The notes beneath the pieces are model-generated. The model made no database searches. It worked only from the letters and a program-made list of their open reading frames with translations, and was not told the origin of the DNA. Of a DNA stretch of 64,000 nt, positions 38,761 through 53,852 are shown piece by piece. Source of the stretch: Octopus vulgaris (Eukaryota); NCBI GenBank assembly GCA_951406725.2, contig OX597842.1, positions 13,268,001 through 13,332,000 of the forward strand. The letters are read 5' to 3'. The position numbers were made by a program, and so were the translations under genes. Position 1 is the stretch's first letter. Each line of letters opens with the position of its first letter.

Positions 38761-38930
38761 TTTTACATTCGGAATATTCCAGTATCGGTATTGATTTGGT
38801 TTGGTTATTGCCAACATCTGCCTGACACTGGCCCAGGACAGTCACATTTCTGTTGAACGTTGTTTTCGTATAATTTACCAAGGCTGGCAGATAACATCCA
38901 CACATCATACCTCTATTGTTTCTGAGGTCG
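38761..38930 (-). CDS. Last LRR + LRR C-terminal cap exon (170 bp, phase 2-1): DLRNNRGMMCGCYLPALVNYTKTTFNRNVTVLGQCQADVGNNQTKSIPILEYSECK
   Basis: Acceptor aattgcag, donor gttagt; in frame with the LRR exons; CxC...C...C cysteine pattern of LRRCT; N-glycosylation sequons NYT, NVT, NQT. Confidence 0.82.
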
Positions 38931-39164
38931 CTGCAATTATAAACAGAACTCTAAGTGAATGTACTTTAGAGATATGGAAAAACTCCTGCGGTATTTGAGA
39001 AGAAACAAGGATAATATAATTCCAGCAACAAGATTATAGAAGTAATGATATTCATGTTTCGTTCCAAAAGGTGTTAATAACAACAATAAAGTGAAATGGT
39101 TTCTGGTGGAAATTGAAAACATATGAAGTTTTTACTATCTTATAGCTTATGTTTTGAATAATCA

Positions 39165-39500
39165 GAGACCACCTTCGGTCACGAATGGCCATGGGATTGC
39201 ACCTAGAAAGTTACCCTCCCAGGCACAAGTCCGGGCAAGGTTGTTTATGGAAGACCAACAGTCGCCCATGCATACCAACCTCCTCTCTCACACCAGTGAT
39301 GTTATCCAAGGGAAAGGCAAAGGGGCTGATACAGCTTGGCACCAGTGACGTCGCAACTCATTTCTACAGCTAATGGGAATGGCGCAACATGAAATAAAGT
39401 GTCTTGCTCAAGAACACAACACGCAGCCCGGTCCGGGATTCGAACTCACAACCTCACAGTCGTAAGTTCGACGCCCTAACCACTAAGCCATGCGCCTTCA
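39165..39500 (-). mobile_element. SINE family D, full length
   Basis: tRNA-like head with A and B boxes (gagttcgaatcc); core cttgagcaagacactt. Confidence 0.8.
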
Positions 39501-39777
39501 CTTTTGAATAATAAAGCCCCTTTAAGGAAGGAGAAGATTCATAGCCACGTAAGCAGCTCCCTTTATATCATAGATTACGGAAGATTTGATGCTAGAAATT
39601 CGGTGGTAGCGATTTGGCGCAGTTGTCATTGAGCAACAATGTGTTAGACGGATTGTTTTGGTACACAGAAACTTTTGGTGCTGAGGAATTTTTGTTTGCA
39701 GCTTATATAACACTTGGTCTTAAAGTTCAATATGAGCCAATTCAGAAGCTGAAAAAGTACAGAGTTTATGCGTTATA

Positions 39778-40330
39778 CAGTGTGGACCAAAATGATCTGA
39801 CACGTTTGGAGGCTTAATAAAAGCACAAAATAAGAAATAATGAAAAAAAAAAATTTATTTTCTGAATCTATATATAATGCCATATTATTTAATTAAGTTT
39901 TTAAAATTAAATCAGCTAAATGCTTTCCATCATTGTCAACACACTGTTGGAGATGTTCATGAAAGTCATCGATAAATCTATGGATCATTTCTTCTGGAAT
40001 GGTGAAATGTGATTTCTTCTTGTGGGGATATTTAAAATCAAAAGTATTCAGTCATCGCCATCGAGCTATTGATGAATTAAAACGTGCAATCTGTGTAGAA
40101 ATAGCAACCATTCCAGAAGAAATGATCCAAAAAGTTATCGATAACTTTCATGAACGTCTCCAACAGTGTTGACAATGACGGGAAGCATTTAGCTAATTTA
40201 ATATTAAAAAACTTAATGAAATAAAATGGCATTATATGTACATTCAGAAAATAAAATTTTCTTTTCAATATTTCTTATTTTGTGCTTTTATTAAGCCTCC
40301 AAATGTGTCAGATCATTTTGGTCCACCCTG
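39778..40330. mobile_element. Foldback Tc1/mariner-superfamily MITE built from two inverted right ends
   Basis: TA-cagtgtggaccaaaatgatctgacac ... gtgtcagatcattttggtccaccctg-TA; ~225-bp arms; transposase C-terminus CDFFLWGYLKSKVF...IDELKRAI at ~40008-40190. Confidence 0.85.
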
Positions 40331-40498
40331 TATATATATATATATATATATATATATATATATATATATATATATATATATATATATATATATATATATA
40401 TATGTATGTATATATATGTATATAATAAATAAAATATATATCCCTCTGCAAAATAATTTTATTTAATTCTTTTGTAGGAAGGACTGTTTCGACAGGAT

Positions 40499-40560
40499 CG
40501 TGTTCTGTCCTTACCTTCGAAACACGCATTGAGTCGAACCAGGGACAGCTGATGAAGGGG
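40499..40560 (+). ncRNA. Candidate non-circularly permuted hammerhead ribozyme
   Basis: cgtg-TT-ctgtcctt-a-ccttc-GAAA-cacg-(14 nt)-agggacag-CTGATGA-agggg. Confidence 0.45.
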
Positions 40561-50045: not shown

Positions 50046-50897
50046 GATCGAAGTGGAGTAGCACATTCATAAAAAAAGGAAGGTACGATATGTGATTTGA
50101 AAATGTAAATAAGTATTATATATAAATATAAAAAGTAAAAGATATGCGATAAATATAAATGTATATATAAAAGTATACATATATATACACATATAGAGAA
50201 ATAAAAAGGTATGATGTGTGAATAAACAATATTGTATAAAGAAAAGAAAAAGATATGCAATTATAAGATATAAAATAATATACATAAAGTAAAAATATAC
50301 ATATATATATAAATATACATATATATATAAATATACATATATATATATATAAATATACATATATATAATAAATATACATATATATATATATATATATATA
50401 TATATATATATATATATATACATATAAAAGTTATATGCACATTAACAGATATTTTGTTGGATGGCCGTTGACTGTTCAGGAGTTCATTATACATACATAC
50501 ATTTATATATATACATCATACATACATACATACATATATACATACAGGCATACATACATACATATACATACATAAATATATATACACACACATATATGTC
50601 CATGTATGTACGTAATGTACGTATGTATGTAAGTATGTATGTATGTATGTATGTATGTATGTATGTATGTATGTATGTATGTATATGTATGAATGTTTGT
50701 TTGTATGCATGCACAAAATGCTTCACTTGATGTATCATATTCACATATATGCAACACGCACTCGTAGTCCATCACGCAAGTTCACAAACAAATACGTGCT
50801 GCAACTGGGCGTGGGTGAAATTATACGAAATGACAATTTGAAAGAGCGGGAAAGGGAAGATGCGACGAATAATATCAAAAAGACTGGTCTAACTTAC

Positions 50898-50969
50898 AAA
50901 TCTGTTAAATTAGGAAGATTTTGAAAGGTTCCTGGTTTGATTTCGTTTATATGATTGGAAAGCCATTTC
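50898..50969 (-). CDS. LRR exon (72 bp, phase 2-2): KWLSNHINEIKPGTFQNLPNLTD(L)
   Basis: Acceptor gttacag, donor gtaagt, 72 nt, open; one consensus Leu reads Trp (TGG). Confidence 0.82.
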
Positions 50970-51829
50970 CTGTAACATAAATTTGAGTTGATTAGAAATT
51001 GTGTAGAACAAGATCGGTGATAAAATGTCACGCATTGTGGATAAAGAACTGGATGATGGAGAAAGGGTAACTAGATTATAATGACGTTGAAGATCATGAT
51101 GATGGGTATGATGGTGGCGATGTTAGTGGTAAATATTATATGAAGGAGGAGGAGGGGAGGGGGAAGAGGGGAGGAAAAGGAAGAATGTGGTGATGGTGTT
51201 GATGACGATGATGTTATGATGCTAATGATGGGATTAATTACCTTGATTGTAATTATTTCTGAGGGTGTTGTCGATTATCGTTCATGATACTGATGATGAT
51301 GATGTTGATGGTGATGGTGTTATGATGATGAAGCAAACGATGATGAACTATACGATATTGATGATTAAAATACAGATGGCAAAGACCCTGGGGACATTCA
51401 TGATGACAAGAACGAGGACGATTAGGGTTAGGGTGAGGGTTAGGTCATGGCGTCGATGGTGGTGACATAAATAGTACAAGTATTAGTTGAGAAGAAAAGA
51501 AAAAAAAATAGTTGAAAGAGTAAGAAGGAGAAAAAGGAAAAGAAGTTGAAGAAGAATGAAGAGAAAAGAAGGAACAGAAGAAGAAGAAGAAGAAGAGAAG
51601 AAGAAGAAGAAGAAGAAGAAGACGAAGAAGGAGAACACATGTTAATACCGTTACATACAAGAATCTATGCACAATATGAGTGTGTGTGTGTGTGTGTGTG
51701 TGTGTGTCGAAATAGACACACTCTTACATAGATCTCTATATATGTATACACATGTACACATCTCCGTTTGTGGGCTCGCATGGGGGGGGGGCAGAAGTAT
51801 GTAGAATTGGTGTGTTCAATTGTAAATGA

Positions 51830-53370
51830 GATTAAGATAAAGAAACATTGATCATAGAACAAACATCAAATGTGAGTCAACGATTTTATATATAACACCA
51901 TACCTCGATCATTTAGTCATATGTAAATATTACCATGGTCCTTGAACATATAAAATATACATTTACATAAAAAAAGAGAAGGTAAAATTATATATGCGAA
52001 TAAAATAAAAAATATATAGAACAGCCTATCAAAAAGGTAAATATAAAAGACTAAAAATTCCTAAGAATTATAAAGCGTGTCACGCTACAAAAAAAAACTA
52101 ATAAACTAAGATAAAACAAAATATCAAACGACTAAAAATATTTTTAAAAGTTCTTTTTTACTCCCTTCACAAAACGTACGTCCAAAATGTTCAATTCTTA
52201 AAACCATGGTAGGTTACAGTCCATGAGCAAAGAGAGTTCCACAAGGTCAATTCAAACAAACCTATGGCCATTTCGATTATATTAAAGTGCATAACGGCAA
52301 TGTCCCTCTCTTCAGGATGAACAGGAACCAGGAAACACGCACAGAGCAAAACTAAAATGTTCATACAACGCCACATGGCTAATTTTAAGATAAACCCGTC
52401 ATTGCAGCAACATTTTCTAACACATAAAGAAACACCGAATTAGTTTATTGCTAAACATGCAGGTGGCTGTTGTTAATAGAAATTTATACTCGCTGGTTTC
52501 AAAACCCTATAAAATTAACCATTATTTACTACATCTACTTTCATTTCTAAACACTTTCAGAAAAGTAGACGAAAACTTATGGGTGTAAAAAGGGATCACC
52601 TCAGTAAATTTATTTAAGCCCAAAAGACTTAAGGATGGCAAGGGATTCCCTTACACATAACTTTCACTTATTTATATTAACTCTGAAATAAGGAGCCCTC
52701 GAAATAACAGACCATTCAAGAGAATATCTTTTAGTTATTCCTCTTTAAACTCTGTATATAAGAATCAAATGTAGTAGAATAACAGTATTCATCGTTGGAA
52801 AACGAATTCATGTGAGCCCTATACATAGTCTTAAAATTTACAGCACTGCCTATATAAAACTTATCCAAATTACCATCCTCTTTAACAAAGCATTTATATA
52901 TTGCATTAGTAGAGAAACAAAGCCAATCAAGGAGACATAATACAGTGTTTCTACAATTATATGATTTACCAAAGCCATTCCTAACTTTATTACTACAACT
53001 GACATTATTTGTCTGGCTTCCCACCTTCTTTCCTTCAGATATCCCATTACTGGGGTTCGAAAAGACTGGGGAAGCAAATGGTTTGTAGCACTAAACTTAG
53101 GCATATAAGAGAATACCTGGCCAGAACCAGGGTTTTCCAGCAGAAGAATACTTCCTCAGCCCTTGCCCAATTAACTTGCTTCTATTAAGAGACGCAATAA
53201 TGGAGGCCATAGTTGGCATTACTGAGTAAGAGAATTTGATGGAAGACTTATTGCAAATGCTGCAGTATTTATGATTGTTTGGGAAAATCTTCTTCAGAAT
53301 CTTAAACAACAATTTGGTCAAGGTTCTTTCTCTAAGAGAAAAAGTCAGGGGCGAACCATCTTATATCCCG
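51830..53370 (-). mobile_element. 3' fragment of a second Penelope-like family (GIY-YIG + pLTR with HHR at 52258-52320); paralogue at 62688-64000
   Basis: IFPNNHKY..I.N..SIKFSYS.MP, NAIYKC...FYIG..NFK..Y..H..SF; HHR atc-CTGAAGA-ga...tc-GAAA-tggcca-TA-ggt also at 48145, 55118 and 62998. Confidence 0.8.
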
Positions 53371-53780
53371 TATGCTAGAACGTGAGCTCTTGCTTTTATT
53401 ATCTCCTCTTTTCCACTATTTCGCTTCCTGTATCTATTCCTAACATCTTTACATATGTCACACCCTACAATCTCGATGGACTGGATCCACCCACTACCAG
53501 AACACATGATAACGACCCATATATATATATATATATATATATATATTTACATGCGTGCATAAAATGGTTCGTCTGAGGTGTCACACTCACATATATAAAA
53601 ACAGATACTCTTATTCCCTCAGACATGACATTCACAAGCAATCATACGTTCTTATTAGGGGAGAGTGAGAATATTGGGAGAGAATAAGTGAGAGAGTGGG
53701 AAAGTAAGGTTGTGAAGATATTAAAGATTTAGAAAGATATTGTCAATGAAATGCTAGCAACAAGTCTGATCTTTACTTAC

Positions 53781-53852
53781 AATGTTCTTAAACTGGGGAG
53801 ATTTTGAAAGGATCCGGCTTTGAGTTCTTTTATATCATTTTTATGCAAATAT
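53781..53852 (-). CDS. LRR exon (72 bp, phase 2-2): YLHKNDIKELKAGSFQNLPSLRT(L)
   Basis: Minus strand acceptor tctttcag, donor gtaagt, exactly 72 nt, open; matches the 24-aa typical LRR xLxxNxIxxLxxGxFxxLPxLxxL. Confidence 0.88.

What the first reader, a model, noticed from the sequence alone, without database searches (positions are those of the whole stretch)
38761..53852. Hidden modular LRR gene: array of interchangeable 72-bp LRR exons ahead of an LRRCT cap, a candidate variable receptor
Seen: five AG...GTAAGT-bounded 72-nt exons, all phase 2-2 and open, splice in frame to a CxC-containing cap exon. Each lies in a homologous intronic cassette (ctcagaca...attcaca...gagag on one side, GAT-rich tract on the other). 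The GxFQNLPxL part is nearly fixed while the x positions of LxxLxLxxN vary. Established: those x positions form the ligand-binding concave face of LRR solenoids, and symmetric exons can be added, lost or skipped without frameshift. Inference: this is an extracellular LRR protein diversified by exon birth-and-death and perhaps combinatorial splicing, analogous to VLR- or Dscam-style variability. The start and end of the gene are not identified here.
Basis: partly seen in the sequence, partly recalled or inferred. Interest (0 to 1): 0.85.

Follow-up and report, generated by a model that had tools for sequence, protein, structure and literature searches.

The report
Octopus receptor with swappable LRR exons
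These five mini-exons each encode one repeat of the binding arm of what is likely an octopus cell-surface signalling receptor (an adhesion GPCR), from a large family whose genes gain and lose such exons and change fast only on the predicted binding face, as recognition receptors in an arms race would.

Summary
Five open 72-nt phase 2-2 LRR exons precede an LRRCT exon, and RNA-like contigs splice them.

The gene starts 11 kb beyond the window (signal/LRRNT exon, 9 LRR exons, one dead). It continues into a SEA-like exon and stops at an assembly gap. A neighbouring 92-94% identical sister gene is a complete LRR-SEA-HormR-GAIN-7TM adhesion GPCR.

The family is the published octopus expansion, group 3 of PMC6408891. 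It has at least 61 caps, 698 pattern-matched LRR exons (some in other LRR genes) and 8 to at least 58 exons per sampled gene.

Exon birth and death is visible directly. In 35 independent exon pairs, replacement divergence at five concave-face codons is 0.22, against 0.036 synonymous and 0.025 intronic.

In-frame LRR skipping appears in annotated isoforms of paralogues, but not yet for this gene. Nothing supports VLR-type somatic assembly or Dscam-type mutual exclusion. The closest mechanism is brown-algal ROCO exon shuffling.

The scan found this family before on other DNA. Verdict: new variant of a known kind; ligand unknown.

The parts
53781..53852 (-). LRR exon 5 of 9 (class B), 72 nt, phase 2-2
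50898..50969 (-). LRR exon 6 (class A). It differs from exon 1 of the array only by a compensated -1/+1 frameshift that rewrites four head codons (NMAF to KWLS); could be an assembly error
   Evidence: 6 ungapped mismatches fall to 0; the only such exon among 211
46920..46991 (-). LRR exon 7 (class C)
43927..43998 (-). LRR exon 8 (class B); its cassette is 95% identical to that of exon 5
41881..41952 (-). LRR exon 9 (class D, terminal), spliced to the cap in RNA-like contigs
38761..38930 (-). LRRCT cap exon (170 nt, phase 2-1); at least 61 homologues in the genome
36179..36273 (-).
33930..34029 (.). Assembly gap (100 N). The gene model ends here; homology to the 3'-complete copy T runs to the gap edge, about 640 nt short of T's next exon
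62177..62687 (-). Remnant of a class-A cassette whose exon was deleted (89% identical to 50362-50825, breaking about 70 nt before the exon): exon death
48744..64000 (.). Segmental tandem duplications that carry the cassettes (48744-50415 with 59576-61192, 89%; 51943-53262 with 62678-64000, 96%)
36179..64000 (-). Part of gene W inside the window. Its 5' end lies beyond 64000: LRR exons at G000:C29:13332606 (dead donor), 13333935, 13336972 and 13340121, and the signal-peptide/LRRNT exon at C29:13343073-13342897

Best explanation
The exons are repeats 5-9 and the cap of the ectodomain of what is likely a full-length octopus LRR adhesion GPCR (signal peptide, LRRNT, 8 live LRRs, LRRCT, SEA-like domain, then a HormR-GAIN/GPS-7TM half likely hidden by an assembly gap), whose inherited binding face is diversified by duplication and loss of whole one-repeat exon cassettes and by positive selection, most likely to recognise fast-changing non-self ligands at body surfaces. 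Shown: the exons, their splicing, the family, copy-number turnover and the excess of replacement changes at five concave-face codons. Inferred: unequal crossing-over between multi-kb homologous cassettes as the engine, with phase 2-2 symmetry keeping the frame. In the model the splice junction falls inside each beta-strand (x23-L24 | x1), so any gain, loss or skip of an exon would pair new variable residues within one strand. Inferred from adhesion-GPCR biology (recalled): ligand binding or force on the LRR arm would expose the GAIN tethered agonist and switch on G-protein signalling. Modest in-frame skipping likely adds isoforms. The non-self ligand is the weakest step (about 50%).
For: Gene map. 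tblastn of Octopus proteins places the signal/LRRNT exon, 9 LRR exons, cap and SEA exon of gene W, and a complete sister gene D with HormR, GPS and 7TM exons at C29:13264515-13200892. W and D are about 92-94% identical over the main 5' blocks. Homologues carry Pfam 7tm_2 and GPS above cut-off, and the best PDB sequence hits are ADGRG2 and ADGRG6. Truncation at a gap. W matches copy T at 96.1% over 8.7 kb right to the gap edge, and T carries all downstream exons to the 7TM. Turnover. Exon class order is A B C B* B A C B D in W and A C B* A C B D D in D, and the O. sinensis model P0001 has 10 repeats. Counts in 9 sampled genes are 8, 9, 11, 11, 17, at least 23, at least 26, 50 and at least 58; 11 of 217 hits lack a canonical site or carry a stop in the 72-nt register. 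Selection. In 35 independent pairs with flanks at most 10% apart, pN at positions 1, 3, 4, 22, 23 is 0.222 (91/409) against pS 0.036 (18/508; Fisher p 8e-19), flanks 0.025, core 0.016 and other positions 0.019. It holds without W and D (29 pairs, 0.147 against pS 0.026) and in W/D live exons without the frameshift exon (4 pairs, 0.56 against flank 0.026). Structure. The model of P0001 (pLDDT 90.5) is an LRR solenoid with strands on x23-L24-x1; best folds include LRRTM2 and chondroadherin. Polymorphism. Neither of the 2 cap starts read in RNA-like contigs matches W, D or T, and the differences sit at x positions. Expression of group 3 is reported in axial nerve cord, suckers, skin and gills (PMC6408891, passages).
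Against: W's own HormR-GAIN-7TM exons are not in the sequence between the gap and gene D, and the closest annotated protein P0001 ends after the SEA domain, so a secreted or truncated product is not excluded. No ligand, tissue or infection data were obtained for this gene. High expression in axial nerve cord (PMC6408891) fits a wiring role as well. Ritschard's site test found no positively selected sites. Pairs were chosen by flank similarity, which lowers the flank distance; the pS and within-exon contrasts do not depend on that. 26 of 64 changed concave codons differ at 2 or more bases, so short gene conversion or assembly error may inflate pN. SEA and HormR hits are below Pfam cut-offs (E 0.013 in P0104, 0.048 in P0003). 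The runs are only guessed to be RNA, and one X6 contig covers intron.
Confidence: 0.65

Rival explanations
1. Same gene architecture, but the varied LRR faces serve as a self-recognition or wiring code in the arm nervous system and suckers, complementing protocadherins, or as contact chemosensors.
For: Group 3 members are high in axial nerve cord, suckers and skin, and the authors propose an adhesion/guidance role (PMC6408891, passages). The closest folds are neural LRR adhesion proteins. Adhesion GPCRs act in wiring (recalled).
Against: A 6-fold excess of replacement over synonymous change between recently duplicated cassettes, dead exons, and variants that differ between runs fit an arms race better than a stable code. 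One family member carries a Death domain. Gill expression is high in C. minor.
Confidence: 0.3
2. A Dscam-like system: cell-specific combinatorial skipping of LRR exons is the main source of diversity, giving many receptors per gene.
For: All exons are symmetric. Annotated isoforms of 3 paralogous genes differ by exact 24-residue LRR units (6 O. sinensis isoforms of 477-525 aa; 5 of 1184 aa against one of 1208 aa; 3 O. bimaculoides isoforms of 593 aa against one of 617 aa). Arrays of 50-58 exons would give unusually long solenoids if all were included. One contig has a class-B end identical to exons 2 and 5, and one base from exon 8, joined to the terminal exon.
Against: All 5 contigs join classes in genomic order (B-D, D-D, D-cap), and the one-base difference is as well explained by an allele. 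In 2 of the 3 isoform sets the longest model holds every repeat and the others lack one, which is skipping rather than mutual exclusion. Near-identical exons invite mis-mapped isoform models. A fourth set (4 isoforms) shows no LRR skipping.
Confidence: 0.2
3. Copy W is a naturally truncated duplicate: a secreted LRR-SEA decoy or a pseudogene, without the 7TM half.
For: No downstream exon lies in window 1-33929. P0001 and several annotated relatives lack the 7TM. Earlier scan notes report secreted members (unchecked). One W exon has a dead donor.
Against: The break coincides with an assembly gap, and homology to T runs to its last base. A W-specific cap contig (0 mismatches over 132 nt, where D differs at 1 site and T at 2) continues 55 nt beyond what fits, as a splice would. 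Another contig continues 117 nt, longer than the 95-nt SEA exon, though its letters were not shown.
Confidence: 0.15
4. A VLR-like system in which LRR cassettes are assembled somatically by gene conversion into an incomplete germline gene.
For: LRR modules with a hypervariable concave face; VLR chains appear among the PDB sequence hits.
Against: The cassettes are ordinary spliceable exons with AG/GTAAGT in 206 of 217 cases, lying in order between each gene's own first exon and cap. RNA-like contigs show splicing at those sites. There are at least 61 separate caps.
Confidence: 0.03

Closest known systems
Octopus-specific adhesion GPCR expansion, group 3 of Ritschard et al. 2019 (PMC6408891; passages and supplement rows seen)
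   Same: Same family: two O. bimaculoides entries found as relatives here (A0A0L8GYR2, A0A0L8HDZ7) are listed as group 3 in the supplement. GPS and adhesion 7TM, LRR in 5 of 22, one Death-domain member, branch-level positive selection.
   Different: The paper counts 21-22 sequences over three species and finds no selected sites; the word splicing does not occur in its main text and the passages seen describe no exon cassettes. Here one genome has at least 61 caps, hundreds of 72-nt exons, up to at least 58 per gene, and site-specific hypervariability.
Brown-algal ROCO genes with shuffling LRR exons (PMC11378527; abstract and passages seen)
   Same: One LRR per 72-bp phase-2 exon, exon shuffling, positive selection on concave-face sites, alternative splicing, proposed immune role.
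   Different: ROCO proteins are LRR-ROC-COR GTPases, not homologous outside the LRR. The octopus proteins are extracellular arms on a GPCR, with larger arrays.
Tetrahymena 90-bp-exon LRR genes (PMC6564038; abstract and outline seen)
   Same: Tandem arrays of equal-length phase-2 LRR exons expanded clonally, proposed to spread by unequal crossing-over.
   Different: 90-bp unit, ciliate, thousands of genes; no GPCR is mentioned in the abstract.
Vertebrate ADGRG6/GPR126, ADGRG2 and LRR-bearing ADGRA receptors
   Same: GAIN/GPS-7TM core; ADGRG2 and ADGRG6 are the best PDB sequence hits. The SEA-HormR-GAIN order resembles ADGRG6 (recalled).
   Different: Single-copy, conserved receptors with fixed ectodomains (CUB-PTX or LRR-Ig; recalled) and no variable exon array.
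Lamprey/hagfish VLR and arthropod Dscam (PMC13428168; passages seen)
   Same: Modular variable recognition surface; LRR concave face in VLR.
   Different: VLR is assembled somatically by deaminase-dependent diversification, and Dscam uses mutually exclusive Ig exons. Neither was found here.

Membership tests
Octopus group 3 adhesion GPCRs | Homology to listed group 3 members | tested here: met
   The cluster of P0028 (E 8.7e-106 to P0004 residues 40-480) holds A0A0L8GYR2, and the cluster of P0099 (E 3e-29 to P0003) holds A0A0L8HDZ7; both are group 3 in the supplement. W's cap matches P0004 at 71% and P0003 at 80%.
Adhesion GPCR | GPS/GAIN motif and secretin-type 7TM in the same gene | tested here: inconclusive
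   Met for sister D and copy T. For W itself these exons would lie past the assembly gap.
Adhesion GPCR | Signal peptide and long modular ectodomain | tested here: met
   First coding exon with a hydrophobic leader and LRRNT cysteines, then LRRs, LRRCT and a SEA-like exon. The leader was judged by eye; no predictor was run.
Adhesion GPCR | Autoproteolysis and tethered-agonist G-protein signalling | not testable with these tools
   The GPS motif with its cleavage-site residues is present in D and T; activity is untested.
Shuffling LRR-exon genes (ROCO/Tetrahymena type) | One LRR per equal-length phase-2 exon, variable in number | tested here: met
Shuffling LRR-exon genes (ROCO/Tetrahymena type) | Positive selection on concave-face codons | tested here: met
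   pN 0.22 against pS 0.036 in 35 pairs; a counting test, not a codon model
Shuffling LRR-exon genes (ROCO/Tetrahymena type) | Alternative splicing of LRR exons | tested here: inconclusive
   Seen in automated isoform models of 3 of 4 multi-isoform paralogue sets; not seen for this gene in 5 contigs
VLR | Incomplete germline gene plus non-spliceable flanking cassettes | tested here: not met
   Ordered spliceable exons inside complete genes
VLR | Somatic assembly and clonal expression | not testable with these tools
   Needs single-cell or tissue DNA
Dscam-type | Mutually exclusive choice of one exon per cluster | tested here: not met
   Contigs and annotated proteins chain consecutive LRR exons, with up to about 20 repeats in one protein model
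Conserved LGR/Slit/TLR orthologue | Single copy, fixed repeat number, rhodopsin-type 7TM, EGF or TIR domain | tested here: not met
   At least 61 caps and variable exon number; the relatives scanned show 7tm_2 and GPS and none of those domains

The most novel reading that the evidence does not exclude
Octopuses have a diversified recognition repertoire unlike known ones. About 60 LRR adhesion-GPCR genes hold several hundred hypervariable one-repeat exons, polymorphic between animals and skipped combinatorially cell by cell. Each splice rebuilds a beta-strand of the binding face, and the output is wired directly to G-protein (in one member, Death-domain) signalling. It would be a functional analogue of VLR/Dscam in a cephalopod, for immunity or for arm self-recognition.
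Probability: 0.25. Interest if true: 0.9.

Novelty: new variant of a known kind. Interest (0 to 1): 0.62.

Why it matters
Cephalopods have no known diversified recognition receptor (recalled; the passages of the 2026 review PMC13428168 that I saw name FREPs for molluscs and none for cephalopods). A published but thinly described GPCR expansion turns out to carry hundreds of interchangeable LRR exons with strong site-specific selection. That makes a concrete, testable candidate for octopus immune recognition or arm self-recognition, and an animal parallel to algal and ciliate LRR exon shuffling. Automated annotation fragments these genes and names them Slit-, TLR- or chaoptin-like, which hides the system. 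The exon design and the family are each known, and the scan has met the family at least 8 times elsewhere, so this window adds one member, RNA-like junction evidence and a selection test.

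Tried and rejected
No RNA holder listed: the run search named no run on record as RNA, so the runs laid are guesses.

One search did not show the cap's loose-end letters, because SINE hits filled the table; those junctions are read from coordinates only. 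X8 gave no contig on exon 9, which proves nothing. No multi-exon stretch was laid, because every intron holds simple repeats, so skipping within W was not tested directly.

Two cap hits with 451-496 aa open frames looked like retrocopies but are ATN simple repeats.

The first exon scan used a wrong register and the first profile was built from one unit; both were redone.

I tested whether the contig holding D and T is simply inverted in the scaffold, which would make W and T one gene. No overlap was found at the other contig end (best 76% over 480 nt). T and D, which are certain paralogues, are about 95% identical, so W/T at 2.4% substitutions cannot be called alleles or paralogues.

A tree of 40 GPS-7TM rows had no outgroup and gave no usable root. 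Foldseek returned only LRR proteins, so the SEA assignment rests on the strand/helix order and a weak Pfam hit. The window's cap itself has no relevant Pfam hit.

Literature: 6 searches returned no paper describing LRR exon cassettes in octopus GPCRs; most subscription journals are not searched. No earlier scan note lies near this place. No complex was predicted, since there is no candidate partner.

Full report
Observation. The five exons and the cap are as described, on the minus strand: 53852-53781, 50969-50898, 46991-46920, 43998-43927, 41952-41881 (72 nt, AG/GTAAGT, phase 2-2, open) and 38930-38761. Each scores best as LRR_8. Their intronic flanks are homologous; the quoted motifs occur beside 4 or 5 of 5 exons. 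Controls exclude chance: 217 profile hits in 864 kb against 0 on reversed sequence, and 698 genome-wide pattern matches against 4.

The gene. The window is G000:C29:13268001-13332000. The cap's three database relatives are Octopus proteins. Mapping them gives gene W: a leader/LRRNT exon at C29:13343073-13342897, nine LRR exons (four beyond the window, one with its donor changed to AT), the cap, and a 95-nt exon at window 36273-36179 that begins a SEA-like domain. Then comes an assembly gap at 33930-34029.

The sister copies. Directly downstream lies gene D (C29:13264515-13200892), about 92-94% identical over the main 5' blocks. It has eight LRR exons and all exons for SEA, HormR, GAIN/GPS and a secretin-type 7TM. 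A third copy, T, on the plus strand, starts at another gap and holds the last LRR exon, the cap and the whole 3' half. It matches W at 96.1% over 8.7 kb up to W's gap edge (2.4% substitutions). W is therefore most likely a full receptor cut by the assembly. Whether T is its allele or a paralogue is open, since T and D are also about 95% alike and a test for a flipped contig found no support. W, D and T lack the cysteine-rich (Ly6/uPAR-like, name recalled) exons that most relatives carry after the cap: none of 65 hits lies in these three copies.

The family. A search with the ectodomain-proximal region returned 45 proteins, all Octopus, mostly labelled ADGRG6-like, some Slit-, TLR- or chaoptin-like. 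Wider profile hits add an Argonauta protein and an unnamed 1155-aa protein with the same layout and few LRRs. Two of the relatives are listed as group 3 in the supplement of Ritschard et al. 2019 (PMC6408891). That paper (passages read) reports an octopus-specific adhesion-GPCR expansion with LRRs in 5 of 22 sequences, branch-level positive selection, no selected sites, and expression in axial nerve cord, suckers, skin and gills. In this genome the cap has at least 61 copies. Nine sampled genes hold 8, 9, 11, 11, 17, at least 23, at least 26, 50 and at least 58 LRR exons. The 50 lie between one first exon and one cap with no gap. The pattern recovers 175 of 206 known exons, so 698 matches imply roughly 800 exons. 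13 of the 100 listed lie away from any cap hit and probably belong to other LRR genes.

Birth and death. W and D share four exon classes in different order and number (A B C B* B A C B D against A C B* A C B D D), and the O. sinensis model P0001 has ten repeats, only one identical to a W or D exon. Whole multi-kb segments are duplicated. A class-A cassette at window 62177-62687 has lost its exon. 11 of 217 hits lack a canonical splice site or carry a stop in the 72-nt register. Unequal crossing-over between homologous cassettes is the inferred cause.

Selection. In the AlphaFold model of P0001 (mean pLDDT 90.5) the strands fall on positions x23-L24-x1, so the splice junction cuts each strand. 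I paired exons by flank similarity, using each once (35 pairs of 211 exons; the rest had no unused partner with flanks within 10%). Replacement divergence at positions 1, 3, 4, 22 and 23 is 0.222, against 0.036 synonymous, 0.025 in flanks, 0.016 at core and 0.019 at other positions. The result stands without W and D (29 pairs, 0.147 against pS 0.026) and without the frameshift exon. The positions were chosen from LRR structure but after seeing W, so the 29-pair set is the cleaner test. Caveats: flank-based pairing lowers the flank figure; 26 of 64 changed concave codons differ at several bases, so conversion or error may contribute; this is a counting test.

Transcription and splicing. No run is on record as RNA. 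In the guessed-RNA contigs, listed pieces stop at the cap's acceptor in X5, X6 and X7 and 3 nt past its donor in X1 and X5, as expected from a splice to the SEA exon; one X6 contig reads into intron. On exon 9, five contigs in 3 of 4 runs cover exon only and continue into an LRR exon or the cap, in frame and in genomic class order. The two cap starts read (DLTNNIG, DLKNNTG) match none of W, D or T (DLRNNRG, DLANNTG, RPQNNIG), and one exon end (RI-L) matches no fetched exon exactly. This points to allelic or copy variation at the same positions. No skip was proven. Annotated isoforms of three paralogues differ by exact 24-residue units and a fourth set does not. These are automated models of near-identical exons.

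Mechanism. Best reading (0.65): an inherited, fast-turning repertoire of LRR adhesion GPCRs whose binding face is rebuilt by exon gain, loss, selection and probably some skipping, signalling through the GAIN-7TM core, most likely against non-self ligands. Rivals: a wiring or self-recognition code (0.3), Dscam-like splicing as the main source of diversity (0.2), W as a secreted or truncated copy (0.15), and VLR-like somatic assembly (0.03). These overlap in part, so they do not sum to 1.

Comparison and novelty. It works like brown-algal ROCO genes (72-bp phase-2 LRR exons, concave-face selection, splice variants; PMC11378527, abstract and passages) and Tetrahymena 90-bp-exon genes (PMC6564038, abstract and outline). 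It is a member of octopus group 3, and not of VLR or Dscam (PMC13428168, passages). Six searches found no paper on the exon cassettes of this family. The scan's own notes describe the same family at 8 other places in this genome. I had reached my reading before that look-up, and those notes are not independent support. Verdict: new variant of a known kind, interest 0.62.

Noticed in passing
G000:C29:13137426-13140591 (L084, L085), copy T: T's last LRR exon is 70 nt (2 short) and its cap 1 nt short. The two deletions, 3 kb apart, cancel across the intron and keep the frame while rewriting the strand residues. With the KWLS exon in W this is a second compensated frameshift at the binding face; either could be an assembly error.
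   Followed up: partly
G000:C29:13332606 and 13250661: W and D share a class-B exon with the same dead donor (GT to AT), yet their head codons differ (LLSE against ILHG), suggesting change after or despite inactivation, or conversion.
   Followed up: partly
G000:C8:79124118-79267674 (L121-L135) and C10:6342219-6484233 (L102-L116): Single family genes with 50 and at least 58 LRR exons; fully included they would give very long LRR solenoids.
   Followed up: partly
P0020 (O. bimaculoides), residues 1203-1277: A family member with a cytoplasmic Death domain behind the 7TM (Pfam above cut-off); one such member is also noted in PMC6408891.
   Followed up: partly
G000:C29:13360183-13360070 (L033): An isolated HormR-type exon on the minus strand upstream of W, a relic of another family copy.
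   Followed up: no
G000:C29:13177196-13177068: An inverted extra copy of a 7TM exon inside copy T, between its last exons.
   Followed up: no
window 61282-62194, 39774-40334, 43046-43482, 55524-56041: Long imperfect palindromes (67-92% self-complementary), probably MITE-like elements, in the introns.
   Followed up: no
window about 28100-31400, 48500-49700 and 57300-60600: Decayed reverse-transcriptase (LINE-like) fragments, judged by eye from translations; two copies travel with the duplicated cassette segments.
   Followed up: no
G000:C29:13226044-13227131 and 13146448-13149246: An intronic minisatellite between SEA exons that the annotation of P0005 translates as a false 300-residue repeat.
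   Followed up: no
P0107 (unnamed record, 1155 aa): Same LRR, Cys-rich, SEA-like, GPS, 7TM layout with only about four LRRs and at most 56% identity to any copy in this genome over the part searched: a candidate for the unexpanded ancestral form in another species.
   Followed up: partly
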